DNA of 64,000 bases. Source: the human T2T-CHM13v2.0 reference genome, Homo sapiens. The position numbers and the translations under genes are program-made. The notes beneath the pieces are model-generated. The model worked only from the letters and a program-made list of their open reading frames with translations. It was not told where the DNA came from and searched no databases. The stretch lies in assembly GCA_009914755.4 (NCBI GenBank), contig CP086569.2, positions 50,848,001-50,912,000 of the forward strand. Direction: 5' to 3'. Below are positions 31,059 to 64,000 of this stretch, in pieces (positions within the stretch are counted from its first letter, which is position 1; each line of letters opens with the position of its first letter).

Positions 31059-31356
<298 letters not shown>

Positions 31357-33478: not shown

Positions 33479-33776
<298 letters not shown>

Positions 33777-35898: not shown

Positions 35899-36195
35899 TT
35901 TTTTTTAGACAGAGTCTTGTCCTGTTGCACAGGGTGGAGTAAAATGACGCCATGTTTGCTCACTGCAACATCTGCATCACGGGTCCAAGCGATTGTCCTC
36001 CCTCAGCCTCCCAGGTAGCTGGGACTACACCACACTGGGTCTACACCAGCTGCCACCATACCTAGCTAATTTTTTGGGATTTTATTAATGACAGCGTTTC
36101 ACTGTATTGGCCAGGATGGTCTTGATCTCTTCACCTTGTGATCCCCTTGCCTTGGCCTCCAAATTTGCTGGGATTACAGGCCTGAGCCAAGATCC
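35899..36195 (-). mobile_element. Alu, unit 15 copy
   Basis: Same Alu, with an 8-T tail. It carries the variants 'gtaaaatgacgccatgtttg' and 'ctgcatcacggg'. Confidence 0.9.
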
Positions 36196-38324
36196 ATATT
36201 TTTTAAAAGAAAAAAAATTTCAAAGGTACTCTGCTTGGTACAATAATCAAATGTATAAACTGAGGAATAAAACATAACCATGAAACCTACTTATAACTGT
36301 ATACGGAAAATACAGAGGATAATTTTTTAAATAACATATTTTGAAAGCCTTAACTAGTAATTTGAAGAGTTGGCATTTGAAAGGCCAGTATGAATATACC
36401 TTCAAAGCAGCAACACAGGTTCCCCATGAGAAAAAGCAAACTCAGGGAAAATAAAACCACAAAGGTTCCATCTCTTCTGACCTTTGAAAGACACAGCACA
36501 GACAGTGGTCCTTAGGACGAAGAGCAGGAGACCCCTAATTCCGTCACCATGGCGATAGGGCATAAACATTGCTGGGTGAGGGCACAATCCACATTGTGAG
36601 GTCCAACTGCTGCCAGGAAGACAGGAGTGCTTTTACATAGACCGAAAGGTCATTGAAGGCTCAGAGTTTTGTTTCAAGAACTGAATCCCAAGCCCACACG
36701 TTATTAGGCTGCGCTTCTTAAAACAAGTTATGAGATGGGAAAAAGGGCACCCACAAACATACGTATACATTATGTATATAATAATATACAGTATCATATA
36801 TATAATATATATAACCTATGTATAATATTGTTTTACATCCAGCATCTTATAATATATATATTGTATAAAATATAATAATTGATAATATATAAGTTTTATA
36901 TTTATACAATATGACATATAGTATATATTATAATTTATGACATATATAATATATGTTATATATCATATATAGAATATATTATACGGTTAATATACGTATT
37001 AAATATAAATTATACGTTATATATATTATATATTATATATCTGTTATATATAATACCCATTATGCATAATATATATGTTATGTCTATGTTATATATAGTA
37101 TAAAACAACATATAATAATATATAATTGTATATATAAAATGCGACATATAATATATATTATATTTTGTGACATATGTAATATATATTATATATTATATAT
37201 AATACGTTGTATGTATAATACCTATATTAAATATATATTATATGACTATGTTATTAATTACATGTCACATATGTTATATATTATATATTTTACATAGAAT
37301 ATACCGGTTACATACAATATATACTATGTTACCTATAATGTATAATTTATTACATGTAAAATAAAGAATGCAATATATTATGTATAATTTATAATATACA
37401 ATATGTGGAATGTGATATATATAACATATAATGTATGATATAAGATATAAAGTATATGATATATAACATACAATATATGATACCTAATATATATGGTATA
37501 CAATATATATTTTATGATATGTATTCTATATGTTTTATATTCTGTTATATATAACTATTTGAAATTATATATAACTGTATAATATTTTATGTAAATATGT
37601 AATATAATATATAACTATATAATATATTATATATAACTATATATTATGTTATATATACTTTTATAACATAATTTACATAAAATATCATAATATACTATAT
37701 ATTTTATTATTTCATATTACATAATATATATTACATATCACCCAATATAAGTAACATACATAATATTATAAAATAGATTATATTATGTTATATTAAATAT
37801 CATATATATCATGTATCATATATTCTATAATATATATTATACATTATATAATATGTATGTTGTCTATTATGTGATATATATAACTATATATATAATTATA
37901 TTATTATACATATAACTAGATAAACATGTAATTCTACATATTTTCATTTATAATATATAGAATTATATAATCATATATAATTATTTATATTCTAAAAAAA
38001 TTATATCATTATATAAAATATAATATATAAAATTTATAATATGTACTACAAATATATATATTATATATCATATATGATATAGTACCTTTGTTATATATCA
38101 TATTACATATAAATGTGTATTATGATACCTAGAATTATATAATTTCATATATAAGATGTATAATATGTATTACATATTGTATATGTTATGTAATATATAT
38201 AGTATATATAAGATGACACAGGATAAATATTATATACTATGACATATAAAATATATGAGGTTATATGTTACATATAAGGCATAGCACATAACATGTAATT
38301 GATATCATATATAATTTTTTTTTT

Positions 38325-38613
38325 AGACAGAGTCTTGTCCTGTTGCACAGGGTGGAGTACAATGGCGCCATCTTTGCTCACTGCAACATCTGCCTCACGG
38401 TTCCAAGCGATTGTGCTCCCTCAGCTTCCCAGGTAGCTGGGACTACACCACACTGGGACTACCCGAGCTGCCACCATGCCTAGCTAATTTTTTGGAATTT
38501 TAGTAGTGACAGCGTTTCACTGTATTGGCAAGGATGGTCTTGATCTCTTCACCTTGTGATCCCCTTGCCTTGGCCTCCAAATTTGCTGGGATTACAGGCC
38601 TGAGCCAAGATCC
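38325..38613 (-). mobile_element. Alu, unit 16 copy (flank-type markers reappear)
   Basis: Same Alu. It carries 'ccatgcctagctaattttttggaattttagtag', 'cacggttccaagcgattgtgctccctcagcttccc' and 'ctacccgagctgcc'. Confidence 0.9.
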
Positions 38614-40708
38614 ATATTTTTTAAATGAAAAAAAATTTCAAAGGTACTCTGCTTGGTACAATAATCAAATGTATATACTGAGGAATAAAACATAACCATG
38701 AAACCTACTTATAACTGCATATGGAAAATACAGAGGATAATTTTTTAAATAACATATTTTGAAAGCCTTAACTAGTAATTTGAAGAGTTGGCATTTGAAA
38801 GGCCAGTATGAATATACCTCCAAAGCAGCAACACAGGTTCCCCATGAGAAAAAACAGACTCAGGGAAAATAAAACCAAATAGGTTCAATCTCTTCTGACC
38901 TTTGAAAGACACAGCACAGACAGTGGTCCTTAGGACGAAGAGCAGGAGACCCCTAATTCCGTCACCATGGCGATAGGGCATAAACATTGCTGGGTGAGGG
39001 CACAATCCACATTGTGAGGTCCAAGTTCTGCCAGGAAGACAAGAGTGCTTTTACATAGACCGAAAGGTCATTGAAGGCTCAGAGTTTTGTTTCAAGAACT
39101 GAATCCCAAGCCCACACGTTATTAGGCAGTGCTTCTTAAAACAAGTTATGAGATGGGAAAAAGGGCACCCACAAACATACGTATACATTATGTATATAAT
39201 AATATACAGTATCATATATATAATATATATAACCTATGTATAATATTGTTTTACATCCTGCATCTTATACTATATATATTGTATAAAATATAATAATTGA
39301 TAATATATAAATTTTACATTTATACAATATGACATATAGTATATATTATAATTTATGACATATATATTATATGTTATATATCATATATAGAATATATTAT
39401 ACGGTTAATATACGAATTATATATAAATTATATATTATATACATTATATATAATATATCTGTTATATATAATACCCATTATGCATAATATATATATTATG
39501 TCTATGTTATATATAGTATAAAACAACATATAATAATATATAATTGTATATATAAAATGTGACATATAATATATATTATATTTTATGACATATGTCATAT
39601 ATATTATATATTATATATAATACGTTGTATGTATAATACCTATATTAAATATATATGATATGACTATGTTATTAATTACATGTGACATGTGTTACATATT
39701 ATATATTTTACATAGAATATACCGGTTACATACAATATATACTATGTTACCTACAATGTATAATTCATTACATGTAAAATAAAGAATGGAATATATTATG
39801 TATAATTTATAATATACAATATGTGGAATGTGATATATATAACATATAATATATGATATATGATATACAGTATATGATATATAACATACAATATATGATA
39901 CCTAATATATATGGTATACATTATATATTTTATGATATGCATTCTATATGTTTTATATTCTGTTATATATAACTATTTGAAATTATATATAACTGTATAA
40001 TATTTTATGTAAATATGTAATATAATATATATAGCTATATAATATATTATATATAACTATATATTATGTTATATATACTTTTATAACATAATTTACATAA
40101 AATATCATAATATAATATATATTATATTATTTCATAATACATAATATATATTATATATCACCCAATATAAGTAACATACATAATATTATAATATAGATTA
40201 TATTATGTTATATTAAATATCATATATATCATGTATGATATATAATAATATATATTATACATTATATAATATGTATGTTGTCTATTATGTGATATATATA
40301 ACTATATATATAATTATATTATTATACATATAACTAGATAAACGTGTAATTCTACATATTTTCATTTATAATATACAGAATTATATAATCATATATAATT
40401 ATTTATATTCTATAAAAAATTATATCATTATATATTATAATATATAAAAATTATAATATGTACTACTAATATATATATTATATATCATATATGATATAGT
40501 ACCTTTGTTATATATCATAATACATATAAATGTGTATTATGTTATCTATAATTATATAATTTCATATATAAGATGTATAATATGTATTATATATTATATA
40601 TGTTATGTAATATATATAGTATATATAAGATGACACAGGATAAATATTATATACTATGACATATAAAATATATGAGGTTATATGTTACATATAAGGCATA
40701 GCACATAA

Positions 40709-41029
<321 letters not shown>

Positions 41030-43121
41030 ATATTTTTTAAATGAAAAAAAATTTCAAAGGTACTCTGCTTGGTACAATAATCAAATGTATAAACTGAGGA
41101 ATAAAACATAACCATGAAACCTACTTATAACTGCATATGGAAAATACAGAGGATAATTTTTTAAATAACATATTTTGAAAGCCTTAAGTAGTAATTTGAA
41201 GAGTTGGTATTTGAAAGGCCAGTATGAATATACCTTCAAAGCAGCAACACAGGTTCCCCATGAGAAAAAGCAAACTCAGGGAAAATAAAACCACAAAGGT
41301 TCAATCTCTTCTGACCTTTGAAAGACACAGCACAGACAGTGGTCCTTAGGACGAAGAGCAGGAGACCCCTAATTCCGTCACCATGGCGATAGGGCATAAA
41401 CATTGCTGGGTGAGGGCACAATCCACATTGTGAGGTCCAACTGCTGCCAGGAAGACAGGAGTGCTTTTACATAGACCGAAAGGTCATTGAAGGCTCAGAG
41501 TTTTGTTTCAAGAACTGAATCCCAAGCCCACACGTTATTAGGCTGCGCTTCTTAAAACAAGTTATGAGATGGGAAAAAGGGCACCCACAAACATACGTAT
41601 ACATTATGTATATAATAATATACAGTATCATATATATAATATATATAACCTACGTATAATATTGTTTTACATCCTGCATCTTATGTTATATATATTGTAT
41701 AAAATATAATAATTGATAATATATAAGTTTTATATTTATACAATAAGACATATAGTATATATTATAATTTATGACATATATAATATATGTTATATATCAT
41801 ATATAGAATATATTATACGGTTAATATACGTATTAAATATAAATTATACATTATATATATTATATATAATATATCTGTTATATATAATACCCATTATGCA
41901 TAATATATATATTATGTCTATGTTATATATAGTAGAAAACAACATATAATAATATATAATTGTATATATAAAATGCGACATATAATATATATTATATTTT
42001 ATGACATATATAATATATATTATATATTATATATAATACGTTGTATGTATAATACCTATATTAAATATATATTATATGACTATGTTATTAATTACATGTC
42101 ACATGTGTTATATATTATATATTTTACATAGAATATACCGGTTACATACAATATATACTATGTTACCTACAATGTATAATTTATTACATGTAAAATAAAG
42201 AATGCAATATATTATGTATAATTTATAATATTCAATATGTGGAATGTGATATATATAACATATAATATATGATATATGATATACAGTATATGATATATAA
42301 CATACAATATATGATACCTAATATATATGGTATACAATATATATTTTATGATATGTATTCTATATGTTTTATATTCTGTTATATATAACTATTTGAAATT
42401 ATATATAACTGTATTATATTTTATGTAAATATGTAATATAATATATATAACTATATAACATATTATATATAACTATATATTATGTTTTATATACTTTTAT
42501 AACATAATTTACATAAAATATCATAATATAATATATATTATATTATTTCATATTACATAATATATATTACATATCACCCAATATAAGTAACATATATAAT
42601 ATTATAATATAGATTATATTATGTTATATTAAATATCATATATATCATGTATCACATATTCTATAATATATATTACACATTATATAATATGTATGTTGTC
42701 TATTATGTGATATATGTAACTATATATATAATTATATTATTATACATATAACTAAATAAACATGTAATTCTACATATTTTCATTTATAATATATAGAATT
42801 ATATAATCATATATATCATTATTTATATTCCATAAAAAATTATATCATTATATAAATTATAATATATAAAAATTATAATATGTACTACAAATATATATAT
42901 TATATATCATATATGATATAGTACCTTTGTTATATATCATAATACATATAAATGTGTATTATGTTATCTATAATTATATAATTTCATATATAAGATGTAT
43001 AATATGTATCATATATTATATATGTTATGTAATATATATAGTATATATAAAATGACACAGGATAAATATTATATACTATGACATATAAAATATATGAGGT
43101 TATAATATATATCATATATAA

Positions 43122-43419
<298 letters not shown>

Positions 43420-45507
43420 ATATTTTTTAAATGAAAAAAAATTTCAAAGCTACTCTGCTTGGTACAATAATCAAATGTATAAACTGAGGAATAAAACATA
43501 ACCATGAAACCTACTTATAACTGCATATGGAAAATACAGAGGATAATTTTTTAAATAACATATTTTGAAAGCCTTAACTAGTAATTTGAAGAGTTCGCAT
43601 TTGAAAGGCCAGTATGAATATACCTTCAAAGCAGCAACACAGGTTCCCCATGAGAAAAAGAAAACTCAGGGAAAATAAAAACACAAAGGTTCAATCTCTT
43701 CTGACCTTTGAAAGACACAGCACAGACAGTGGTCCTTAGGACGAAGAGCAGGAGACCCCTAATTCCGTCACCATGGCGATAGGGCATAAACATTGCTGGG
43801 TGAGGGCACAATCCACATTGTGAGGTCCAACTGCTGCCAGGAAGACAGGAGTGCTTTTACATAGACCGAAAGGTCATTGAAGGCTCAGAGCTTTGTTTCA
43901 AGAACTGAATCCCAAGCCCACACGTTATTAGGCTGCGCTTCTTAAAACAAGTTATGAGATGGGAAAAAGGGCACCCACAAACATACGTATACATTATGTA
44001 TATAATAATATACAGTATCATATATATAATATATATAACCTATGTATAATATTGTTTTACATCCTGCATCTTATGTTATATATATTGTATAAAATATAAT
44101 AATTGATAATATATAAGTTTTATATTTATACAATATGACATATAGTATATATTATAATTTATGACATATATAATATATGTTATATATCATATATAGAATA
44201 TATTATACGGTTAATATACGTATTAAATATAAATTATACATTATATATATTATATATAATATATCTGTTATATATAATACCCATTATGCATAATATATAT
44301 TATGTCTATGTTATATATAGTATAAAACAACATATAATAATATATAATTGTATATATAAAATGCGACATATAATATATATTATATTTTATGACATATGTA
44401 TTATATATTATATATTATATATAATACGTTGTACGTATAATAACTATATTAAATATATATTATATGACTATGTTATTAATTACATGTCACATATGTTATA
44501 TATTATATATTTTACATAGAATATACCGGTTACATACAATATATACTATGTTACCTATAATGTATAATTGATTACATGTAAAATAAAGAATGCAATATAT
44601 TATGTATAATTTATAATATACAATATGTGGAATGTGATATATATAACAAATAATATATGATATATGATATACAGTATATGATATATAACATACAATATAT
44701 GATACCTAATGTATATGGTATACAATATATATTTTATGATATGTATTCTATATGTTTTATATTCTGTTGTATATAACTATTTGAAATTATATATAACTGT
44801 ATAATATTTTATGTAAATATGTAATATAATATATATAACTATATAATATATTATATATAATTATATATTATGTTATATATACTTTTATAACATAATTTAC
44901 ATAAAATATCATAATATAATATATATTATATTATTTCATATTACATAATATATCTTACATATCACCCAATATAAGTAACATACATAATATTATAATATAG
45001 ATTATATTATGTTATATTAAATATCATATATATCATGTATCATATATTCTATAATATATATTATACATTATATAATATGTATGTTGTCTATTATGTGATA
45101 TATATAACTATATATATAATTATATTATTATACATATAACTAGATAAACATGTAATTCTACATATTTTCATTTATAATATATAGAATTATATAACCATAT
45201 ATAATTATTTATATTCTATAAAAAATTATATCATTATATAAATTATAATATATAAAAATTATAATATGTACTACAAATATATATATTATATATCATATAT
45301 GATATAGTACCTTTGTTATATATCATAATACATATAAATGTGTATTATGTTATCTATAATTATATAATTTCATATATAAGATGTATAATATGTATTATAT
45401 ATTATATATGTTATGTATTATACATAGTATATATAAGATGACACAGGATAAATATTATGTACTATGACATATAAAATATATGAGGTTATAATATATATCA
45501 TATATAA

Positions 45508-45805
<298 letters not shown>

Positions 45806-45902
45806 ATATTTTTTAAATGAAAAAAAATTTCAAAGGTACTCTGCTTGGTACAATAATCAAATGTATAAACTGAGGAATAAAACATAACCATGAAACCTAC
45901 TT

Positions 45903-49644
<3,742 letters not shown>

Positions 49645-49650
<6 letters not shown>

Positions 49651-49658
49651 TATGGACT
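49645..49658. other. DYZ2 (AT-rich segment) to HSat3 array junction
   Basis: The DYZ2 AT-rich text 'ccataatatatcata' gives way abruptly to 'tggactcctttggaatggtctagtatacaatgcaatcgactggcaggg'. Both flanks could have supplied the 2–3 bp 'at(a)' at 49,649–49,651. Confidence 0.8.
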
Positions 49659-51727
49659 CCTTTGGAATGGTCTAGTATACAATGCAATCGACTGGCAGGG
49701 AATTAAAAGGAATGCAATCGAATGGATTGCACAGGAATGCAATGGACTCGAATAGATTGGAAACAGAATGCAAAGGAATGGAATGGAATAGTATGGAATG
49801 GAATGGAAAGGAATGGAGTGGAATAGACTAGAGTAGAATGGAATTTACTCGAAAGCAATGGACTGGAATAGAACTTTATTGAATGGGCTGGAATCAAACG
49901 GAATGGAATGCTGTGCAATCAAATAGAATGAAAGAGAATCAAATCCAATCGAATGGATTGGAAAGGAATTGACTGAAATGGAATGGACTAGAATGGAAGG
50001 CAAAGGAATGGAATCTATAGGAATGGACTGTAATGGAATGGAATGGAATGGGTTGGAATGGAATCGAATGGAATGGACTGCAATAGAAAGGATTCGAATG
50101 GAATGAAAAAGAATTGAATGGAATAGAACAGAATGGAATCAAATCGAGTGAAATGGAATGGAATAGAAAAGAATGGACTCGAATGGAATGGAATGTCATG
50201 GAATGGCATCAAATGGAATGGAATCGAATGCAATGGAATGCTATGGAATGGAATGGAATGCATTGGAATGGAATGTCCTCTAATGGAATGGATTCGAGTG
50301 GAATGGAATCGAATATAATGGAGTCGAATGAAATGGAATTGAAAGGAATGGGACTGAATACAATGGAATATACTGGAATGTAATGTAATGAACTCGAATG
50401 TAATTGACTGGAATGGAATGTACATGAATGGAATGTAATCGAATGGAAAGTAATCCAATGGAATAGAATCTAATGCAATAAAATCGACTCAGATAGAGTA
50501 GAATGTAATGGAATGGAGTGCAGTGCAATGGAATGGAATGGAATGGAATGCAGTGGAATGGAATGGAATGGAATGCAATGGAATGGAATGTATTAGAATG
50601 TAATGAACATTAATGGAATGTACTCGAATGGATTCGACTGGAATGGAATGTTCTGTAAGTTTATGGACTCCAATGGAATGGATTCGAAAGGAATGGAATC
50701 GAACGGAATGGAATCTAATGGAATGGAATTAAATGGAAATGAATCAAATTGAATAGCACGGAATTGAATTGAATGTAATAGAATGCAATGTAATCTAATG
50801 AAACAGAAAGGAAAGGAATGGAATGGAATGGAATGGGCTGGAATGGAATGGAATAGAAACGAATGGAATGGAATCGAACTAAAGAGACTGGAATGGAATG
50901 CACTGGAATGGAAGGGAGTGTAATGGAAGGTTCTCGAAAAAAATGGAATCGAATGGAATGAAATTGAATGGAACGGAATAGAGTCGAATGGAATTGAATG
51001 GAATGGAATGGACTAGAGTGAAATGGAATCGAACCACAAGGAATGGACAGGAATAGAATGGTCTCGAATTGAATGGAATCGTATGGAATGGCATCAAACG
51101 GAATGGAATGGACAGCCACGGAATGGAATGCACTCGAATGCAATGGAGTCGAACTAATGGACTGGAATAGAATGGACTCGACTGGTACGGACTCCAATGG
51201 AATGGAATCGAATGGAAGGGAATCGAACGGAATGGACTCGAAGGGAAAAGACTGCAATGGAAAGGTCTCGAATGGAATGGAAATTAATGGAATGGAATGG
51301 AATCGAATGAAGTGGAGTCAAAAGGAATGGAATCGAATGGCAAGAAATCGAATGTAATGGAATCGCAAGGAATTGATGTGAACGGAACGGAATGGAATGG
51401 AATCCAAAGGAATGGAATAGAATGGAATGGAATCAAATGGAAAGGACTCGAATGGAAATCACTCGAATAGAATGCAATTTAATAAAATAGGATCAAATGT
51501 AATGGAATGGAATGGAAAGGAATCGAAACGAAAGGAATGGAGACAGATGGAATGGAATGGAACAGAGAGCAATGGTATAGAATGGAATGGAATCATCTGG
51601 AATGGAAATGAATGGAATGGAATAACATGAAATGGAATGGAATGGAATGGAATACCCTTGAATTAAATGGACTGGAATGGAATGGACTCGAACAGAGTGT
51701 AATGGAAAGTGTTGAAATAGAATGGAA
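49653..51727. repeat. DYZ1 higher-order unit A' (junction-proximal, internally deleted, 2,075 bp)
   Basis: This unit is collinear with unit B, but the alignment offset steps from 2,075 to about 2,140, then to about 2,883, then to 3,544. That implies roughly 65 bp plus 720 bp plus 660 bp missing. The missing segment includes the GGCC/EcoRI-containing part of the unit. Confidence 0.75.
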
Positions 51728-54700
51728 TGGACTCGTTTGGAATGGTCTAGTATGCAATGCAATCGACTGGCAGGGAATCAAAAGGAATGTAATCGAATGG
51801 ATTGGACTGGAATGCAATGGACTCGAATAGATTGGAAACGGAATGCAAAGGAATGGAATGGAATAGTATGGAATGGAATGGAAAGGAATGGAGTGGAATA
51901 GACTAGAGTGGAATGGAATGGACTGGAAAGCAATGGACTGGAATGGAACTTTCTTGAATGGACTGGAATCAAACGGAATGGAATGCAATGCAATCAAATG
52001 TCATGGAATAAAATAGAATGCAAGAGAATCAAATGGAATTGAATCGAATGGAATCGAATGGATTGGAAAGGAATAGAATGGAATGGAATGGAATTGACTC
52101 AAATGGAATGGACTAGAATGGAATGGATTCGAATGGAAGGCAAAGGAATGGAATCTATTGGAATGGACTGTAATGGAATGGAATGGAAGGGATTGGAATG
52201 GACTCGAATGGAATGGACTGCAATAGAAAGGATTCGAATGGAATGAAAAAGAATTGAATGGAATAGAACAGAATGGAATCAAATCGAATGAAATGGAATG
52301 GAATAGAAAGGAATGGAATGAAATGGAATGGAAAGGATTCGAATGGAATGCAATCGAATGGAATGCAATCGAATGGAATGGAATCGAACGGAATGGAATA
52401 AAATGGAAGAAAACTGGCAAGAAATGGAATCGAAATGAATGGAGTGTTATGGAACGGACTCAAAAGGAATTGAATGTAATAGAATGGAGTGGAGTGGACT
52501 CGAATATAATGGACTGGAATGGAATGAAATCACATGGAATGGGAACGAATGGAATGGAATGGAAAGGAATGGAATGGAATGGAAAGGAATCGAATGGAAG
52601 GGAATGAAATTGAATCAACAGGAATGGAAGGGAATAGAATAGACGGTAATGGAATGGACTCGAATAGAATGGACACGAATGCTCAAATTGAATGGACTCG
52701 AATGGAATGGAAACGAAAGGAATGTCATCGAATGGAATTGAATCGATTGGAATGAAATCGCATAGAATGGAGTGGAATCAAATGGAATTGAATCGAAAGG
52801 AAAGGAAGCGAATGGACTGAAATGAAATGGAATGGAATTGAATGGAAAGTAATGCAATGGAATAGAATGGAACGAAATTTCACGGAATGGAATCAAACTG
52901 AATGGAATCAAATCAATGGAATATAATCAAATGGAATGGAAAGGAATTGAATGGAGTAGATTGGATTGGATGGGATTGGAATGAAACGTACTGGAAAGGA
53001 CTCGAATTTCATGAAACGGAATGGAATGAATTGGAACGGAATGGACTCGAAAGGAATGGAATGACATGGAATGGCATCAAATGGAATGGCATCAAATGGA
53101 ATGGAATCAAATGCAATGGAATGCTATGGAATGGAATGGAATGCATTGGAATGGAATGTCCTCTAATGGAATGGATTCGAGTGGAATGGAATCGAATATA
53201 ATGGAGTCGAATGAAATGGAATTGAAAGGAATGGGATCGAATAGAATGGAATATACTGGAATGTAATGTAATGAACACGAATGTAATTGACTGGAATGGA
53301 ATGTACATGAATGGAATGTAATCGAATGGAAAGTAATCCAATGGAATAGAATGTAATGCAATAAAATCGACTCAAATAGAATAGAATGTAATGGAATGGA
53401 GTGCAGTGCAATGGAATGGAATGGAATGGAATGCAATGGAATGGAATGGAATGGAATGGAATGGGATGGAATGGTATGGAATGGATAGTAATGGACTGGA
53501 GTGAAATGGACTGGAAAGGACTGGACTCAAATTGAAAGGGCTCGAAAGGAAAGGAGTCAAATGGAATGGTCTGGAATGGAATGAACACGAATGTAATGCA
53601 ATCCAATAGAATGGAATCGAATGGCATGGAATATAAAGAAATGGAATCGAAGAGAATGGAAACAAATGGAATGGAATTGAATGGAATGGGAATGAATGGA
53701 GTGAAATTGTATGCAGTAGAAGAGAATAGAATGCAATGGAAGCGAAAGGAAAGGAATGGATTGGAATGGAATGGAATTCATTGGAATGGAAGGGAATGTA
53801 GTGTAATGGACAGGCCTGGAATAAAGTGGAATGCTACGGTCTCGAATGGAATAAAAATGTATGGAATGGAATGCAGTGAAACGGAATCGAATGTCATAGA
53901 ATGTAATGGAATGCAAAAAAATGGAATCCAAAATCATTGACTGGAAAGGCTGGGTGTCGAAAGGAATTGACTCCAATGGAATGGAATCTAAAGGAATGGA
54001 AGTGAATAGAATCGAACTAAATCGAATGGAATGGAATTGATAGGAACGGAATGGAAAGGAATGCAATGATTTGGCATGGAATGGAATCGAATGGCATCGA
54101 ATGGAATGGAATGGAATGCAATGGAATGGAATGTATTAGAATGTAATGAACTTTAATGGAATGTACTCGAATGGATTCGACTGGAATGGAATGTTCTGGA
54201 AGTGAATGGACTCCAATGGAATGGATTCGAAAGGAATGGGACCGAACGGAATGGAATCTAATGGAATGGAATTAAATGGAAATGAATCAAATTGAATAGC
54301 ACGGAATTGAATTGAATGGAATGGAATGCAATGGAATCTAATGAAACGGAAAGGAAAGGAATGGAATGGAATGGAATGGGCTGGAATGGAAAGGAATCGA
54401 AACGAATGGAATGGAATCGAACTGAAGAGACTGGAATGGAATGCACTGGAATGGAAGGGAGTGTAATGGAAGGTTCTGGAAAAAAATGGAATCGAATGGA
54501 ATGGAATTGAATGGAAAGGAATAGAGTCGAATGGAATTGAATGGAATGGAATGGAATAGAGTGAAATGGAATCGAACCACAAGGAATGGACAGGAATAGA
54601 ATGGTCTCGAATTGAATGGAATCGTATGGAATGGCATCAAACGGAATGGAATGGACAGCCACGGAATGGAATGCACTCCAATGCAATGGAGTCGAAACTA

Positions 54701-55271
54701 ATGGACTGGAATAGAATGGACTCGACTGGTACGGACTCCAATGGAATGGAATCGAATGGAAGGGAATCGAACGGAATGGACTCGAAGGGAAAAGACTGCA
54801 ATGGAAAGGTCTCGAATGGAATGGAAATTAATGGAATGGAATGGAATCGAATGAAATGGAGTCAAAAGGAATGGAATCGAATGGCAAGAAATGGAATGTA
54901 ATGGAATCGCAAGGAATTGATGTGAACGGAACGGAATGGAATGGAATCCAAAGGAATGGAATAGAATGGAATGGAATCGAATGGAAAGGACTCGAATGGA
55001 AATCACTCGAATAGAATGCAATTTAATAAAATAGGATCAAATGTAATGGAATGGAATGGAAAGGAATCGAAACGAAAGGAATGGAGACAGATGGAATGGA
55101 ATGGAACAGAGAGCAATGGTATAGAATGGAATGGAATCATCTGGAATGGAATTGAATGGAATGGAATAATATGAAATGGAATGGAATGGAATGGAATGCC
55201 CTTGAATTAAATGGACTGGAATGGAATGGACTCGAACAGAGTGGAATGGAAAGTGTTGAAATAGAATGGAA
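51728..55271. repeat. DYZ1 higher-order unit B (3,544 bp)
   Basis: The anchor 'tggactcgtttggaatggtctagtatgcaatgcaatcgactggcaggg' lies at 51,728 and recurs at 55,272. Confidence 0.85.
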
Positions 55272-58200
55272 TGGACTCGTTTGGAATGGTCTAGTATGCA
55301 ATGCAATCGACTGGCAGGGAATCAAAAGGAATGTAATCGAATGTATTGGACTGGAATGCAATGGACTCGAATAGATTGGAAACGGAAAGCAAAGGAATGG
55401 AATGGAATAGTATGGAATGGAATGGAAAGGAATGGAGTGGAATAGACTAGAGTGGAATGGAATGGACTCGAAAGCAATGGACTGGAATGGAACTTTCTTG
55501 AATGGACTGGAATCAAACAGAATGGAATGCAATGCAATCAAATGTCATGGAATAAAATAGAATGCAAGAGAATCAAATGGAATTGAATCGAATGGAATCG
55601 AATGGATTGGAAAGGAATAGAATGGAATGGAATGGAATTGACTCAAATGGAATGGACTAGAATGGAATGGATTCGAATGGAAGGCAAAGGAATGGAATCT
55701 ATTGGAATGGACTGTAATGGAATGGAATGGAAGGGATTGGAATGGACTCGAATGGAATGGACTGCAATAGAAAGGATTCGAATGGAATGAAAAAGAATTG
55801 AATGGAATAGAACAGAATGGAATCAAATCGAATGAAATGGAATGGAATAGAAAGGAATGGAATGAAATGGAATGGAAAGGATTCGAATGGAATGCAATCG
55901 AATGGAATGCAATCGAATGGAATGGAATCGAACGGAATGGAATAAAATGGAAGAAAACTGGCAAGAAATGGAATCGAAATGAATGGAGTGTTATGGAACG
56001 GACTCAAAAGGAATTGAATGTAATAGAATGGAGTGGAGTGGACTCGAATATAATGGACTAGAATGGAATGAAATCACATGGAATGGGAACGAATGGAATG
56101 GAATGGAAAGGAATGGAATGGAATGGAAAGGAATCGAATGGAAGGGAATGAAATTGAATCAACAGGAATGGAAGGGAGTAGAATAGACGGTAATAGAATG
56201 GACTCGAATAGAATGGACACGAATGCTCAAATTGAATGGACTCGAATGGAATGGAAACGAAAGGAATGTCATCGAATGGAATTGAATCGATTGGAATGAA
56301 ATCGCATAGAATGGAGTGGAATCAAATGGAATTGAATCGAAAGGAAAGGAAGCGAATGGACTGAAATGAAATGGAATGGAATTGAATGGAAAGTAATGCA
56401 ATGGAATAGAATGGAACGAAATTTCACGGAATGGAATCAAACTGAATGGAATCAAATCAATGGAATATAATCAAATGGAATGGAAAGGAATTGAATGGAG
56501 TAGATTGGATTGGATGGGATTGGAATGAAATGTACTGGAAAGGACTCGAATTTCATGAAACGGAATGGAATGAATTGGAACGGAATGGACTCGAAAGGAA
56601 TGGAATGACATGGAATGGCATCAAATGGAATGGCATCAAACGGAATGGAATCAAATGCAATGGAATGCTATGGAATGGAATGGAATGCATTGGAATGGAA
56701 TGTCCTCTAATGGAATGGATTCGAGTGGAATGGAATCGAATATAATGGAGTCGAATGAAATGGAATTGAAAGGAATGGGATCGAATAGAATGGAATATAC
56801 TGGAATGTAATGTAATGAACACGAATGTAATTGACTGGAATGGAATGTACATGAATGGAATGTAATCGAATGGAAAGTAATCCAATGGAATAGAATATAA
56901 TGCAATAAAATCGACTCAAATAGAATAGAATGTAATGGAATGGAGTGCAGTGCAATGGAATGGAATGGAATGGAATGCAATGGAATGGAATGGAATGGAA
57001 TGGAATGGGATGGAATGGTATGGAATGGATAGTAATGGACTGGAGTGAAATGGACTGGAAAGGACTGGACTCAAATTGAAAGGGCTCGAAAGGAAAGGAG
57101 TCAAATGGAATGGTCTGGAATGGAATGAACACGAATGTAATGCAATCCAATAGAATGGAATCGAAAGGCATGGAATATAAAGAAATGGAATCGAAGAGAA
57201 TGGAAACAAATGGAATGGAATTGAATGGAATGGGAATGAATGGAGTGAAATTGTATGCAGTAGAAGAGAATAGAATGGAATGCAAGCGAAAGGAAAGGAA
57301 TGGATTGGAATGGAATGGAATTCATTGGAATGGAAGGGAATGTAGTGTAATGGACAGGCCTGGAATAAAGTGGAATGCTACGGTCTCGAATGGAATAAAA
57401 ATGTATGGAATGGAATGCAGTGAAACGGAATCGAATGTCATAGAATGTAATGGAATGCAAAAAAATGGAATCCAAAATCATTGACTGGAAAGGCTGGGTG
57501 TCGAAAGGAATTGACTCCAATGGAATGGAATCTAAAGGAATGGAAGTGAATAGAATCGAACTAAATCGAATGGAATGGAATTGATAGGAACGGAATGGAA
57601 AGGAATGCAATGATTTGGCATGGAATGGAATCGAATGGCATCGAATGGAATGGAATGGAATGCAATGGAATGGAATGTATTACAATGTAATGAACTTTAA
57701 TGGAATGTACTCGAATGGATTCGACTGGAATGGAATGTTCTGGAAGTGAATGGACTCCAATGGAATGGATTCGAAAGGAATGAGACCGAACGGAATGGAA
57801 TCTAACGGAATGGAATTAAATGGAAATGAATCAAATTGAATAGCACGGAATTGAATTGAATGGAATCGAATGCAATGGAATCTAATGAAACGGAAAGGAA
57901 AGGAATGGAATGGAATGGAATGGGCTGGAATGGAATGGAATCGAAACGAATGGAATGGAATCGAACTGAAGAGACTGGAATGGAATGCACTGGAATGGAA
58001 GGGAGTGTAATGGAAGGTTCTGGAAAAAAATGGAATCGAATGGAATGGAATTGAATGGAACGGAATAGAGTCGAATGGAATTCAATGGAATGGAATGGAA
58101 TAGAGTGAAATGGAATCGAACCACAAGGAATGGACAGGAATAGAATGGTCTCGAATTGAATGGAATCGTATGGAATGGCATCAAACGGAATGGAATGGAC

Positions 58201-58815
58201 AGCCACGGAATGGAATGCACTCGAATGCAGTGGAGTCGAAACTAATGGACTGGAATAGAATGGACTCGACTGGTACGGACTCCAATGGAATGGCATCGAA
58301 TGCAAGGGAATCGAACGGAATGGACTCGAAGGGAAAAGACTGCAATGGAAAGGTCTCGAATGGAATGGAAATTAATGGAATGGAATGGAATCGAATGAAA
58401 TGGAGTCAAAAGGAATGGAATCGAATGGCAAGAAATCAAATGTAATGGAATCGCAAGGAATTGATGTGAACGGAACGGAATGGAATGGAATCCAAAGGAA
58501 TGGAATAGAATGGAATGGAATCGAATGGAAAGGACTCGAATGGAAATCACTCGAATAGAATGCAATTTAATAAAATAGGATCAAATGAAATGGAATGGAA
58601 TGGAAAGGAATCGAAACGAAAGGAATGGAGACAGATGGAATGGAATGGAACAGAGAGCAATGGTATAGAATGGAATGGAAACATCTGGAATGAAATTGAA
58701 TGGAATGGAATAACATGAAATGGACTGGAATGGAATGGAATGCCCTTGAATTAAATGGACTGGAATGGAATGGACTCGAAAAGAGTGGAATGGAAAGTGT
58801 TGAAATAGAATGGAA
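55272..58815. repeat. DYZ1 higher-order unit C (3,544 bp)
   Basis: The same anchor recurs at 58,816. The unit is near-identical to unit B. Confidence 0.85.
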
Positions 58816-61800
58816 TGGACTCCTTTGGAATGGTCTAGTATGCAATGCAATCGACTGGCAGGGAATCAAAAGGAATGTAATCGAATGGATTGGACTGGAA
58901 TGCAATGGACTCGAATATATTGGAAACGGAATGCAAAGGAATGGAATGGAATAGTATGGAATGGAATGGAAAGGAATGGAGTGGAATAAACTAGAGTGGA
59001 ATGGAATGGACTCAAAAGCAATGGACTGGAATGGAACTTTCTTGAATGGACTGGAATCAAACGGAATGCAATGCAATGCAATCAAGTGGCATGGAATAAA
59101 ATAGAATGAAAGAGAATCAAACGGAATTGAATCGAATGGAATCGAATGGATTGGAAAGGAATAGAATGGAATGGAATGGAATTGACTCAAATGGAATGGA
59201 CTAGAAAGGAATGGATTCGAATGGAAGGCAAAGGAATGGAATCTATTGGAATGGACTGTAATGGAATGGAATGGAAGGGATTGGAATGGACTCGAATGGA
59301 ATGGACTGCAATAGAAAGGATTCGAATGGAATGAAAAAAAATTGAATGGAATAGAACAGAATGGAATCCAATCGAATGAAATGGAATGGAATAGAAAGGA
59401 ATGGAATGAAATGGAATGGAAAGGATTCGAATGGAATGCATTCGAATGGAATGGAATCGAACGGAATGGAATAAAATGGAAGAAAACTGGCAAGAAATTG
59501 AATCGAAATGAATGGAGTGTTATGGAACGGACTCAAAAGGAATTGAATGTAATAGAATGGAGTGGAGTGGACTCGAATATAATGGACTGGAATGGAATGA
59601 AATCACATGGAATGGGAACGAATGGAATGGAATGGAAAGGAATGGAATTGAATGGAAAGGAATCGAATGGAAGGGAATGAAATTGAATCAACAGGAATGG
59701 AAGGGAGTAGAATAGACGGTAATGGAATGGACTCGAATAGAATGGACACGAATGCTCAAATTGAATGGACTCGAATGGAATGGAAACGAAAGGAATGTCA
59801 TCGAATGGAATTGAATCGATTGGAATGAAATCGCATAGAATGGAGTGGAATCAAATGGAATTGAATCGAAAGGAAAGGAAGCGAATGGACTGAAATGAAA
59901 TGGAATGGAATTGAATGGAAAGTAATGCAATGGAATAGAATGGAACGAAATTTCACGGAATGGAATCAAACTGAATGGAATCAAATCAATGGAATCAAAT
60001 CAAATGGAATGGAAAGGAATTGAATGGAGTAGATTGGATTGGATGGGATTGGAATGAAATGTACTGGAAAGGACTCGAATTTCATGAAACGGAATGGAAT
60101 GAATTGGAACAGAATGGACTCGAATGGAATGGAATGTCATGGAATGGCATCAAATGGAATGGCATCAAATGGAATGGAATCTAATGCAATGGAATGCTAT
60201 GGAATGGAATGGAATGCATTGGAATGGAATGTCCTCTAATGGAATGGATTCGAGTGGAATGGAATCGAATATAATGGAGTCGAATGAAATGGAATTTAAA
60301 GGAATGGGATCGAATACAATGGAATATACAGGAATGTAATGTAATGAACGCGAATGTAATTGACTGGAATGGAATGTACATGAATGCAATGTAATCGAAT
60401 GGAAAGTAATCCAATGGAATAGAATCTAATGCAATAAAATCGACTCAAATAGAGTAGAATGTAATGGAATGGAGTGCAGTGCAATGGAATGGAATGGAAT
60501 GGAATGCAATGGAATGGAATGGAATGGAATGGAATGGAATGGGATGGAATGGTGTGGAATGGATAGTAATATACTGGAGTGAAATGGACTGGAAAGGAAT
60601 GGACTCAAATTGAAAGGGCTCGAAAGGAATGGAGTCAAATGGAACGGTCTGGAATGGAATGAACACGAATGTAATGCAATCCAATAGAATGGAATCGAAT
60701 GGCATGGAATATAAAGAAATGGAATCGAAGAGAATGGAAACAAATGGAATGGAATTGAATGGAATGGAATTGAATGGAATGGGAACGAATGGAGTGAAAT
60801 TGTATGCAGTAGAAGAGAATAGAATGGAATGCAAGCGAAAGGAAAGGAATGGATTGGAATGGAATGGAATTCATTGGAATGGAAGGGAATGTAGTGTAAT
60901 GGACAGGCCTGGAATAAAGTGGAATGCTACGGTCTCGAATGGAATAAAAATGTATGGAATGGAATGCAATGAAACGGAATCGAATGTCATAGAATGTAAT
61001 GGAATGCAAAAAAATGGAATCCAAAATCATTGACTGGAAAGGCTGGGTGTCGAAAGGAATTGACTCCAATGGAATGGAATCGAATGCAATGGAAGTGAAT
61101 AGAATCGAACTAAATCGAATGGAATGGAATGGAATGCAATGGAATGGAATGTATTAGAATGTAATGAACATTAATGGAATGTACTCGAATGGATTCGAAT
61201 GGAATGGAATGTTCTGGAAGTGAATGGACTCCAATGGAATGGATTCGAAAGGAATGGAATCGGACGGAATGGAATCTAATGGAATGGAATTAAATGGAAA
61301 TGAATCAAATTGAATAGCACGGAATTGAATTGAATGGAATCGAATGCAATGGAATCTAATGAAACGGAAAGGAAAGGAATGGAATGGAATGGAATGGGCT
61401 GGAATGGAAAGGAATCGAAACGAATGGAATGGAATCGAACTGAAGAGACTGGAATGGAATGCACTGGAATGGAAGGGAGTGTAATGGAAGGTTCTCGAAA
61501 AAAATGGAATCGAATGGAATGGAATTGAATGGAACGGAATAGAGTCGAATGCAATTGAATGGAATGGAATGGACTAGAATGAAATGGAATCGAACCACAA
61601 GGAATGGACAGGAATAGAATGGTCTCGAATTGAATGGAATCGTATGGAATGGCATCAAACGGAATGGAATGGACAGCCACGGAATGGAATGCACTCGAAT
61701 GCAATGGAGTCGAAACTAATGGACTGGAATAGAATGGACTCGACTGGTACGGACTCCAATGGAATGGAATCGAATGGAAGGGAATCGAACGGAATGGACT

Positions 61801-62294
61801 CGAAGGGAAAAGACTGCAATGGAAAGGTCTCGAATGGAATGGAAATTAATGGAATGGAATGGAATCGAATGAAATGGAGTCAAAAGGAATGGAATCGAAT
61901 GGCAAGAAATCGAATGTAATGGAATCGCAAGGAATTGATGTGAACGGAACGGAATGGAATGGAATCCAAAGGAATGGAATAGAATGGAATGGAATCGAAT
62001 GGAAAGGACTCGAATGGAAATCACTCGAATAGAATGCAATTTAATAAAATAGGATCAAATGTAATGGAATGGAATGGAAAGGAATCGAAACGAAAGGAAT
62101 GGAGACAGATGGAATGGAATGGAACAGAGAGCAATGGTATAGAATGGAATGGAATCATCTGGAATGGAATTGAATGGAATGGAATAATATGAAATGGAAT
62201 GGAATGGAATGGAATGGAATGCCCTTGAATTAAATGGACTGGAATGGAATGGACTCGAACAGAGTGGAATGGAAAGTGTTGAGATAGAATGGAA
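58816..62294. repeat. DYZ1 higher-order unit D (3,479 bp, with small indels)
   Basis: The anchor recurs at 62,295. Relative to unit C there is a 15-bp deletion near 59,440, a 15-bp insertion ('ELNGM' repeat) near 60,760 and a deletion of about 70 bp near 61,120. Confidence 0.8.
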
Positions 62295-64000
62295 TGGACT
62301 CGTTTGGAATGGTCTAGTATGCAATGCAATCGACTGGCAGGGAATCAAAAGGAATGTAATCGAATGGATTGGACTGGAATGCAATGGACTCGAATATATT
62401 GGAAACGGAATGCAAAGGAATGGAATGGAATAGTATGGAATGGAATGGAAAGGAATGGAGTGGAATAGACTAGAGTAGAATGGAATGGACTTGAAAGCAA
62501 TGGACTGGAATGGAACTTTCTTGAATGGACTGGAATCAAACGGAATGGAATGCAATGCAATCATATGACATGTAATAAATTAGAATGAAAGAGAATCAAA
62601 TGGAATTGAATCGAATGGAATCGAATGGATTGGAAAGGAATAGAATGGATTGGAATGGAATTGACTCAAATGGAATGGACTAGAATGGAATGGATTCGAA
62701 TGGAAGGCAAAGGAATGGAATCTATTGGAATGGACTGTAATGGAATGGAATGGAAGGGATTGGAATGGACTCGAATGGAATGGACTGCAATAGAAAGGAT
62801 TAGAATGGAATGAAAAAGAATTGAATGGAATAGAACAGAATGGAATCAAATCGAATGAAATGGAATGGAATAGAAAGGAATGGAATGAAATGGAATGGAA
62901 AGGATTCGAATGGAATGCAATCGAATGGAATGGAATCGAACGGAATGGAATAAAATGGAAGAAAACTGGCAAGAAATGGAATCGAAATGAACGGAGTGTT
63001 ATGGAACAGACTCAAAAGGAATTGAATGTAATAGAATGGAGTGGAGTGGACTCGAATATAATGGACTGGAATGGAATGAAATCACATGGAATGGGAACGA
63101 ATGGAATGGAATGGAAAGGAATGGAATCGAATGGAAAGGAATCGAATGGAAGGGAATGAAATTGAATCAACAGGAATGGAAGGGAATAGAATAGACGGTA
63201 ATGGAATGGACTCGAATAGAATGGACACGAATGCTCAAATTGAATGGACTCGAATGGAATGGAAACGAAAGGAATGTCATCGAATGGAATTGAATCGATT
63301 GGAATGAAATCGCATAGAATGGAGTGGAATCAAATGGAATTGAATCGAAAGGAAAGGAAGCAAGTGGACTGAAATGAAATGGAATGGAATTGAATGGAAA
63401 GTAATGCAATGGAATAGAATGGAACGAAATTTCACGGAATGGAATCAAACTGAATGGAATGAAATCAATGGAATCAAATCAAATGGAATGGAAAGGAATT
63501 GAATGGAGTAGATTGGATTGGATGGGATTGGAATGAAATGTACTGGAAAGGACTCGAATTTCATGAAACGGAATGGAATGAATTGGAACGGAATGGACTC
63601 GAATGGAATGGAATGTCATGGAATGGCATCAAATGGAATGGCATCAAATGGAATGGAATCGAATGCAATGGAATGCTATGGAATGAATGGAATGCATTGG
63701 AATGGAATGTCCTCTAATGGAATGGATTCGAGTGGAATGGAATCGAATATAATGGAGTCGAATGAAATGGAATTGAAAGGAATGGGATCGAATACAATGG
63801 AATATACTGGAATGTAACGTAATGAACTCGAATGTAATTGACTGGAATGGAATGTACATGAATGGAATGTAATCGAATGGAAAGTAATCCAATGGAATAG
63901 AATCTAATGCAATAAAATCGACTCAAATAGAGTAGAATGTAATGGAATGGAGTGCAGTGCAATGGAATGGAATGGAATGGAATGCAATGGAATGGAATGG
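62295..64000. repeat. DYZ1 higher-order unit E (partial, runs off the window)
   Basis: It continues the higher-order repeat and is collinear with units B–D. Confidence 0.8.

What the first reader, a model, noticed from the sequence alone, without database searches (positions are those of the whole stretch)
49653..51727. The junction-proximal DYZ1 unit carries about 1.47 kb of deletions whose breakpoints lie inside pure GGAAT runs, and it lacks the unit's only GGCC site
Relative to units B–D, unit A' is missing about 65 bp near 49,930–49,960 and about 720 bp at about 50,178. The latter corresponds to 52,319–53,037 and has its breakpoint at 'gaatggaatagaaa(a)gaatgga'. It is also missing about 660 bp at about 50,560. 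That corresponds to 53,441–54,120 and has its breakpoint inside 'ggaatggaatggaatggaatgc'. Slippage or unequal exchange within perfect pentamer tracts is the likely mechanism. The second deletion removes the GGCC at the position equivalent to 53,813, so this unit would not release the 3.5-kb HaeIII fragment.
Basis: seen in the sequence. Interest (0 to 1): 0.5.

Follow-up and report, generated by a model that had tools for sequence, protein, structure and literature searches.

The report
Internally deleted edge copy of DYZ1
The first copy of the human Y-chromosome DYZ1 satellite next to a DYZ2 block is a decayed copy that has lost 1,469 bp in several deletions between short direct repeats, which is the ordinary fate of repeat copies at the edge of a satellite array.

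Summary
The core observation holds. Unit A' (49653-51727, 2,075 bp) aligns colinearly with the 3,544-bp units B and C and is 1,469 bp shorter. It has no GGCC, whereas units B, C and D have one each.

Three details need correcting:
- The "65 bp" is four gaps of 15+15+20+15 bp.
- The "~720 bp" is a 728-bp deletion (B 52310-53037) plus a separate 15-bp copy-number difference. That 15-bp difference is a common DYZ1 polymorphism.
- The third deletion is 660 bp (B 53439-54098).

Only the 660-bp deletion has its breakpoint in a pure pentamer run. It shares 20 bp of exact microhomology, and 0.03% of random 500-900-bp deletions do as well. The 728-bp deletion shares only GGAATGGA (8 bp; about 3% by chance).

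An independent metagenome contig (L029) carries the same DYZ2-DYZ1 boundary. It has the same four small gaps and the same diverged last DYZ2 unit, but it lacks the 728-bp deletion. So the small gaps belong to the boundary type, and the 728-bp loss is younger or specific to this copy.

Divergence rises towards the boundary on both sides. This is known edge decay of satellite arrays, with deletions mediated by short homology. It is real but ordinary, and of low interest.

The parts
49653..51727 (+). Unit A': the first, internally deleted DYZ1 (HSat3A6) copy after the DYZ2 block. It is 2,075 bp long, against 3,544 bp for units B and C.
   Evidence: Anchor motifs and period. Colinear blocks with B, C and D.
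49630..49652 (.). DYZ2/DYZ1 boundary. Detectable DYZ2 homology ends at about 49618-49629, and DYZ1 homology starts at 49653 (TGGACTC...).
   Evidence: The same boundary sequence is present in L029.
49653..49920 (+). Most diverged block of A'. It is 94.0% identical to B and to 47 independent DYZ1 copies, but 99.3% identical to L029.
49920..49991 (+). Four small gaps relative to B-D: 15 bp (B 51996-52010), 15 bp (B 52032-52046), 20 bp (B 52070-52089) and 15 bp (B 52116-52130). They sit at A' 49920/21, 49941/42, 49964/65 and 49990/91, each with 4-8 bp of microhomology.
   Evidence: The 24-mers spanning each gap occur only in A' and L029.
50169..50177 (+). Breakpoint of the 728-bp deletion (B 52310-53037). 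The shared sequence is GGAATGGA, which reads AGAATGGA in A' after a private G>A change.
   Evidence: The junction 36-mer and 24-mer were found nowhere else.
50197..50198 (+). 15-bp copy-number difference. A' has one copy of ATGGAATGGCATCAA; B, D and E have two (B 53066-53080). This is a common polymorphism.
   Evidence: 5 single-copy and 30 two-copy states among independent copies.
50555..50575 (+). Breakpoint window of the 660-bp deletion (B 53439-54098). The 20-bp exact microhomology GAATGGAATGGAATGGAATG lies inside a (GGAAT)4 run.
51151..51152 (+). 1-bp gap relative to B (offset changes from 3543 to 3544).
52310..53037 (+). Segment of unit B that A' lacks (728 bp). It contains the site of the published DYZ1 primer E.
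53439..54098 (+). Segment of unit B that A' lacks (660 bp). It contains the unit's single GGCC (53813-53816) and the site of the published primer A.
47210..49629 (+). Last DYZ2 unit. It is strongly diverged, about 88.6% identical to its neighbour, whereas interior units are more than 99% identical to theirs.
   Evidence: L029 is 99.2% identical to this unit over window 48501-49652 and 88-91% to the other DYZ2 units.

Best explanation
The window holds a boundary in human Yq12 heterochromatin between a DYZ2 (HSat1B) block and a DYZ1 (HSat3A6) block. Unit A' is the first DYZ1 copy after that boundary. It is a decayed edge copy. Copies at the end of a tandem array take little part in the unequal exchange and conversion that keep interior copies alike, so they keep their private substitutions and indels.

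A' lost sequence in at least six separate events:
- Four gaps of 15-20 bp between very short direct repeats, of the replication-slippage type. These are older, because another copy of the same boundary shares them.
- A 728-bp deletion between two GGAATGGA motifs.
- A 660-bp deletion between two (GGAAT)n tracts that share 20 bp.

The two large deletions are deletions between short direct repeats. They could arise by out-of-register intrachromatid or sister-chromatid exchange, by single-strand annealing or microhomology-mediated end joining after a break, or by template switching. The 660-bp deletion removed the single HaeIII site of the unit.

Shown: the anatomy, the microhomologies, the sharing with L029 and the divergence gradient. 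Inferred: the direction of the small gaps, the repair pathway, and the idea that L029 is a paralogous boundary. Nothing suggests that the deletions have a function.
For: Identity as DYZ1 next to DYZ2:
- The periods are 3,544 and 2,420 bp.
- There is one GGCC per unit.
- Seven of eight published DYZ1 primers hit once per full unit, at the spacing expected from the HaeIII site (primers from PMC3925983).
- The 2,420-bp unit agrees with the DYZ2 consensus length given in bioRxiv 10.1101/2022.12.01.518658.

Deleted copy: colinear blocks at offsets 2075, 2140, 2883 and 3543/3544.

Direction of change: about 58 independent copies continue in the full-length way after the left anchor of the 728-bp deletion. 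About 35 do so after the left anchor of the 660-bp deletion.

Microhomology: 20 bp for the 660-bp deletion, the maximum available at that spacing, and 8 bp for the 728-bp deletion. The chance frequencies are 0.034% and 2.9%.

Indel-prone sites:
- The (GGAAT)n tract at the left end of the 660-bp deletion varies from n=1 to 13 among independent copies.
- Unit D has its own 75-bp deletion that ends 3 bp from the right breakpoint of the 660-bp deletion.
- Unit D also has a 15-bp deletion, and L029 a 40-bp deletion, next to the left breakpoint of the 728-bp deletion.

Edge decay:
- A' identity to bulk DYZ1 copies is 94.0% in the first 268 bp and 97-99% further in, whereas B is 98-100%.
- DYZ2 units go 88.6, 93.5, 96.6 and about 97% and then above 99% moving away from the boundary.
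- Published work reports more divergent units at the periphery of Yq12 arrays.

Order of events: L029 has the same boundary. It is 99.2% identical in the DYZ2 part and 99.0% over 517 bp of DYZ1, with the same four small gaps. It then continues into the segment that A' lacks.
Against: - Neither large deletion junction could be found in any other sequence. Their reality rests on this one assembly.
- L029 is a short-read metagenome contig. An 87-bp stretch that is identical in A' and in ordinary units lies between its last boundary-specific marker and the 728-bp breakpoint. A chimeric join there cannot be fully excluded. However, its tail carries a 40-bp gap seen in none of the about 58 other copies, which argues against a switch to a bulk unit.
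- The 728-bp deletion has only 8 bp of microhomology, which is only weakly above chance.
- There is no outgroup for the small gaps. They could instead be 15-20-bp duplications that spread through the bulk array after the boundary copy was isolated.
- The repair pathway cannot be told from sequence.
Confidence: 0.85

Rival explanations
1. Assembly artefact: the first DYZ1 unit is really full length, and the assembler collapsed or skipped sequence at repeated pentamer tracts.
For: Both large junctions lie at short repeats, where aligners and assemblers can slip. Neither junction was found in any other collection. Several short-read contaminant contigs show similar jumps that may themselves be misassemblies.
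Against: - The unit lies next to a unique, diverged boundary that anchors reads.
- The flanks of the junctions carry many A'-private substitutions, so the region is not a consensus of bulk units.
- Microhomologies of 8 and 20 bp are far shorter than long-read overlaps.
- The 5' 517 bp is independently confirmed by L029.
Confidence: 0.06
2. Fossil, not deletion: the boundary copy keeps an older, shorter form of the repeat, and the bulk DYZ1 unit later gained the extra segments, which then spread by homogenisation.
For: Edge copies escape homogenisation, so they can preserve old states. The four small gaps are shared by both known copies of this boundary. In the bulk units those gaps correspond to imperfect 15-20-bp tandem-like duplications. 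For these small gaps this reading is a serious possibility.
Against: - For the 728-bp segment, L029, which is the same boundary type, contains at least the first 125 bp or so of the segment. Its absence from A' is therefore derived.
- The 660-bp and 728-bp segments are complex, non-duplicated sequence. Unit B has no internal homologue apart from two 76-bp matches 25 bp apart. That is hard to create by insertion in perfect register.
- A' blocks 3-5 are otherwise typical DYZ1, at 97-99% identity.
Confidence: 0.07
3. A' is a different HSat3 subfamily, or a mosaic of unrelated HSat3 pieces, and not a DYZ1 copy.
For: The first 268 bp are only 94% identical to DYZ1 units.
Against: A' shows strict colinearity with B over all 2,075 bp, with the same order and orientation. 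Identity is 94-99%. Five DYZ1 primer sites sit at the expected places.
Confidence: 0.01

Closest known systems
DYZ1 / HSat3A6, the ~3.56-kb HaeIII repeat of human Yq12
   Same: It is pentamer (GGAAT/ATTCC) based. Its neighbours have a 3.5-kb period with one HaeIII site per unit. Published DYZ1 primer sites are present, and it is adjacent to DYZ2.
   Different: This copy is 2,075 bp long. It lacks 1,469 bp, including the HaeIII site and two primer sites, and its first 268 bp are 6% diverged. The neighbouring units are 3,544 bp. Published work cites 3,564 bp as the standard unit and 3,569 bp as the most abundant virtual HaeIII fragment.
Peripheral divergence of satellite arrays (Yq12 DYZ1/DYZ2 arrays and centromeric alpha-satellite HOR arrays)
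   Same: Identity to the bulk falls towards the array edge on both sides of the boundary. This matches what is reported for Yq12 arrays and for DYZ3 in bioRxiv 10.1101/2022.12.01.518658.
   Different: Published descriptions are at the level of percent identity or k-mer profiles per unit. Here the decay is resolved to individual deletions and their breakpoints.
Small 5/15/20-bp indels within DYZ1 units (PMC3925983)
   Same: The four small gaps and the 15-bp copy-number difference are multiples of five, the size class reported there.
   Different: The 728- and 660-bp deletions are about 40 times larger, and the 728-bp one is not a multiple of five.
Deletions between short direct repeats (replication slippage, single-strand annealing, microhomology-mediated end joining)
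   Same: Every event is flanked by 4-24 bp of exact direct repeat, one copy of which is retained.
   Different: The pathway cannot be assigned from sequence. In a pentamer satellite some microhomology is expected by chance.

Membership tests
DYZ1 (HSat3A6) | Built from GGAAT/ATTCC pentamers and their derivatives | tested here: met
   Sequence read directly. Strong G-over-C and A-over-T skew from 49653 onward. 19% of unit B lies in runs of (GGAAT) with n>=2.
DYZ1 (HSat3A6) | Higher-order unit of about 3.5-3.6 kb | tested here: not met
   Units B and C are 3,544 bp and D is 3,479 bp, so the array meets this feature. A' itself is 2,075 bp. It is a deleted copy, colinear with the full unit.
DYZ1 (HSat3A6) | One HaeIII (GGCC) site per unit | tested here: not met
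   One site in each of B, C and D (53813, 57357, 60906) and none in A'. The equivalent position falls inside the 660-bp deletion.
DYZ1 (HSat3A6) | Sequence match to published DYZ1 (primer sites of the 3,564-bp unit) | tested here: met
   Seven of eight primers from PMC3925983 match once per full unit with 0-2 mismatches, at the spacing expected from GGCC. A' retains primers B, C, D, F and G and lacks A and E. No alignment to a full reference DYZ1 consensus was possible with these tools.
DYZ1 (HSat3A6) | Location in Yq12, alternating with DYZ2 (about 2.4 kb: AT-rich part, Alu fragment and HSATI part) | tested here: met
   A 2,420-bp-period array with alternating AT-rich and GC-richer parts occupies 1-49652. 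2,420 bp equals the published DYZ2 consensus length. The chromosomal location itself cannot be tested.
Short-homology-mediated deletion | Direct repeat at both ends of the lost segment, with one copy retained, longer than chance would give | tested here: met
   660-bp deletion: 20 bp, chance 0.034%. 728-bp deletion: 8 bp, chance 2.9%. Small gaps: 4-8 bp, which is not above chance for 15-20-bp spacings.
Short-homology-mediated deletion | The lost segment is present in the ancestral state | tested here: met
   Both large segments are present in all independent copies sampled. The start of the 728-bp segment is present in L029, which is of the same boundary type. This remains inconclusive for the four small gaps.
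Short-homology-mediated deletion | The deletion exists in the genome, not only in the assembly | not testable with these tools
   No reads are available. No second sequence carries either large junction.

The most novel reading that the evidence does not exclude
Copies of the same DYZ2-to-DYZ1 boundary in Yq12 share an old, diverged core: the same breakpoint, the same four small gaps and the same decayed last DYZ2 unit. They differ by later private deletions such as the 728-bp loss. Each boundary would then carry a barcode. The barcodes could be used to order the large block duplications that built Yq12, and to anchor reads and assemblies in a region that is otherwise nearly uniform.
Probability: 0.4. 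Interest if true: 0.3.

Novelty: new member of a known kind. Interest (0 to 1): 0.12.

Why it matters
It matters little on its own. The case shows base by base how a copy at the edge of a satellite array decays, through substitutions, pentamer-multiple slippage and larger deletions between short direct repeats.

It also explains why a virtual or real HaeIII digest gives an odd fragment of about 5.4 kb at this boundary in place of the 3.5-kb band.

There is a modest practical use. Boundary copies with private deletions are among the few unique landmarks in Yq12. They could help validate assemblies and reconstruct the order of block duplications. There is no sign of any function.

Tried and rejected
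- **MAFFT global alignment of A' with B-D.** It pushed all the missing sequence into one end gap and aligned A' out of register. I rejected it in favour of BLAST blocks, affine-gap pairwise alignment and unique-17-mer diagonals.
- **BLAST chaining with cheap gaps.** It failed the A' control, so I discarded it.
- **Protein route.** I used an ORF spanning the 728-bp junction as a tag for the variant. There was no exact product on record, and the only homologues were distant. The protein collections hold little human satellite.
- **Exact junction patterns.** The 36-mer for the 728-bp junction gave nothing in metagenome contigs. The gapped pattern for the 660-bp junction gave nothing in bacterial and archaeal genome contigs. 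The boundary and both junction patterns gave nothing in viral contigs.
- **Long internal repeats as drivers of the deletions.** Unit B has no off-diagonal self-match apart from two 76-bp matches 25 bp apart. I rejected this idea.
- **A 24-mer across the 660-bp junction hit L011.** This is a chance match at another position in the unit.
- **Jumps in short-read contaminant contigs.** I did not count these as real variants, because de Bruijn assemblers can create them.

Full report
**What the window is**

Positions 1-49652 are a tandem array with a 2,420-bp period in which very AT-rich and GC-richer parts alternate. From 49653 to the end the sequence is a GGAAT-rich array with a 3,544-bp period and strong G and A excess on the + strand.

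There is one GGCC per 3.5-kb unit. Seven of the eight DYZ1 PCR primers published in PMC3925983 match once per unit, at the distances expected from the HaeIII site. They match on the strand opposite to the published orientation. The 2,420-bp period equals the DYZ2 consensus length built in bioRxiv 10.1101/2022.12.01.518658. The window is therefore a DYZ2 (HSat1B) to DYZ1 (HSat3A6) boundary of human Yq12.

**Checking the observation**

A conserved motif defines the units: A' 49653-51727 (2,075 bp), B 51728-55271 and C 55272-58815 (3,544 bp each), D 58816-62294 (3,479 bp), and a partial unit E.

BLAST gives four colinear blocks of A' against B, C and D. Affine-gap pairwise alignment and unique-17-mer diagonals give the same offsets: 2075, 2140, 2883 and 3543/3544. 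A global MAFFT alignment misplaced everything and was discarded.

- **The 65 bp.** This is four gaps of 15, 15, 20 and 15 bp within 49920-49991.
- **The second loss.** This is 728 bp (B 52310-53037) at A' 50169/50170, plus an independent 15-bp difference 28 bp downstream, where A' has one copy of ATGGAATGGCATCAA and B has two. Among independent DYZ1 copies the single-copy state occurs in 5 of 35, so it is an ordinary polymorphism.
- **The third loss.** This is 660 bp (B 53439-54098), with 20 bp of positional ambiguity.

Beyond position 49000, GGCC occurs only at 53813, 57357 and 60906. A' has none, and 53813 lies inside the 660-bp interval. A HaeIII fragment across the boundary would run from 48380 to 53813, which is 5,433 bp.

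**Are the breakpoints special?**

The 660-bp deletion is flanked in B by GAATGGAATGGAATGGAATG on both sides. That is 20 bp exact, embedded in about 45 bp of imperfect homology. It is the longest microhomology available at that spacing in the unit. Only 0.034% of all possible 500-900-bp deletions in B reach it, or 0.13% if only multiples of five are counted.

The 728-bp deletion shares only GGAATGGA (8 bp), a length that 2.9% of random deletions reach. It is not inside a pure pentamer run, and 728 is not a multiple of five. So "breakpoints inside pure GGAAT runs" is true for one of the two large deletions.

Unit B has no long internal repeat that could have driven either event.

Both breakpoint regions are indel-prone in other copies:
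- The (GGAAT)n tract at the left end of the 660-bp deletion ranges from n=1 to 13 among independent copies.
- Unit D has its own 75-bp deletion (B 54021-54095), which ends 3 bp from the right breakpoint of the 660-bp deletion.
- Unit D also has a 15-bp deletion, and L029 a 40-bp deletion, immediately next to the left breakpoint of the 728-bp deletion.

**Independent copies**

The T2T-Y paper reports Y-satellite contamination in microbial databases. I therefore scanned the metagenome and bacterial-genome collections.

The exact junction patterns found nothing, and nothing in viral contigs either. Anchors common to all units returned 63 loci, totalling 192 kb of independent DYZ1.

After the left anchor of the 728-bp deletion, about 58 copies all continue in the full-length way. 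After the left anchor of the 660-bp deletion, none of about 35 copies is of the A' type. The missing segments are thus the norm, and their absence from A' is derived.

**The key comparator, L029**

L029 (contig PKQM01000722.1, 1,841 bp) contains the same boundary.
- Its first 1,159 bp are 99.2% identical to the last DYZ2 unit of the window, but only 88-91% identical to the other DYZ2 units.
- The boundary sequence is identical.
- The next 517 bp are 99.0% identical to A' without gaps, so L029 shares all four small gaps and the A'-type substitutions. The 24-mers across those gaps occur only in A' and L029.
- All five differences in that stretch are positions where L029 has the bulk state and A' has a private change.
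- After AATAGAAA, L029 continues into the segment that A' lacks. It has its own 40-bp gap there, which none of the other copies has.

The small gaps and the diverged edge units therefore belong to the boundary type, and the 728-bp loss is younger or specific to this copy. L029 ends before the 660-bp site.

The ~0.9% divergence between L029 and the window suggests a paralogous boundary and not the same locus in another man. This is an inference. It fits the multi-block duplications described for Yq12.

One caveat applies. L029 is a short-read contig, and 87 bp identical between A' and bulk units lie before the breakpoint, so a chimeric join cannot be strictly excluded. The unique 40-bp gap in its tail argues against one.

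**Edge decay**

Identity to the bulk copies, for each block of A', with the corresponding B block for comparison:

| Block of A' | A' vs bulk | B vs bulk |
|---|---|---|
| 49653-49920 | 94.0% | 99.3% |
| 49991-50169 | 97.2% | 100% |
| 50198-50535 | 99.4% | 98.2% |
| 50576-51150 | 96.8% | 97.8% |
| 51152-51727 | 97.8% | 98.6% |

On the DYZ2 side, identity to the preceding unit is 88.6% for the last unit. It is then 93.5%, 96.6%, about 97% and 96.4%, and above 99% further in.

This is the published pattern of divergent units accumulating at the periphery of Yq12 arrays. Small 5-, 15- and 20-bp indels in DYZ1 are also documented.

**Mechanism**

The best reading is a decayed edge copy that lost sequence in at least six events between short direct repeats. 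The 15-20-bp gaps are of the slippage type. The two large losses arose by out-of-register exchange, single-strand annealing or microhomology-mediated end joining, or template switching.

The anatomy, the microhomology statistics and the order of events relative to L029 are shown. The pathway, the direction of the small gaps and the paralogy of L029 are inferred.

The rival readings and their weights are:
- **Assembly collapse (about 6%).** No reads are available, and no second sequence carries the large junctions.
- **Older short form with later insertions in the bulk (about 7% overall).** This is plausible for the small gaps, but L029 contradicts it for the 728-bp segment.
- **A different HSat3 subfamily (about 1%).** Colinearity and the primer sites refute it.

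**Verdict**

The finding is real and largely as described, with corrections to the number, size and breakpoint context of the events. It is an ordinary example of a known process in a known satellite, and nothing points to function. A modest novel angle is that boundary copies may carry private deletions usable as landmarks in Yq12. The interest is low.

Noticed in passing
window 30270-49629: The DYZ2 side shows a steep divergence gradient towards the boundary. Identity to the preceding unit is 99.5-99.6% for the two innermost units measured and 99.1% for the next. It is 96-97% for the next three, then 93.5%, and 88.6% for the last unit (47210-49629).
   Followed up: partly
window 49618-49652: About 25-35 bp (…acatactttccataatatatcata) lie between the end of detectable DYZ2 homology and the first base of DYZ1 homology. 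Their origin was not resolved. The same bases are present in L029.
   Followed up: partly
window 61113/61114 (unit D) and 59426/59427: Unit D (3,479 bp) has its own 75-bp deletion (B 54021-54095) between ATCGAATGGAATGGAAT repeats, ending 3 bp from the right breakpoint of the 660-bp deletion of A'. It also has a 15-bp deletion (B 52339-52353) close to the left breakpoint of the 728-bp deletion. It carries +5, +15 and +5 bp insertions as well.
   Followed up: partly
window 53401-53460 and equivalents; loci L001-L063: The second (GGAAT)n tract after GTGCAGTGCAAT(GGAAT)4GCA[AG]T is hypervariable. Among independent DYZ1 copies n ranges from 1 to 13, and it is 5-6 in the complete units B, C and D.
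   Followed up: yes
L062 (BMTH01000073.1, Streptomyces griseoincarnatus JCM 4381 assembly) about 192-234: A contaminant DYZ1 contig jumps 1,720 bp from the same (GGAAT)n tract (B about 53422) to B about 55184. This is either another large deletion from the same hotspot or a short-read misassembly. Several other short contigs show similar jumps.
   Followed up: no
L052-L063: Human Y DYZ1 sequence sits in the assemblies of 12 bacterial species representatives. They include Actinomadura cremea JCM 3308, several Streptomyces JCM strains, Vibrio ouci, Legionella sp. and Azospirillum sp. This is contamination of the kind reported in the T2T-Y paper.
   Followed up: no
L023 4290-5892 (BNJU01004413.1, a 54.6-kb metagenome contig): This contig holds a boundary of the opposite polarity, DYZ1 followed by AT-rich DYZ2 with its Alu part. 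It appears to be a noisy long-read metagenome contig. It was not compared in detail.
   Followed up: no
window 51728-64000: The local DYZ1 units are 3,544 bp, 3,544 bp and 3,479 bp. Published work gives 3,564 bp as the standard unit and 3,569 bp as the most abundant virtual HaeIII fragment. B and C are 99.1% identical to each other but only about 97% identical to D and E, so the first few units are still heterogeneous.
   Followed up: partly
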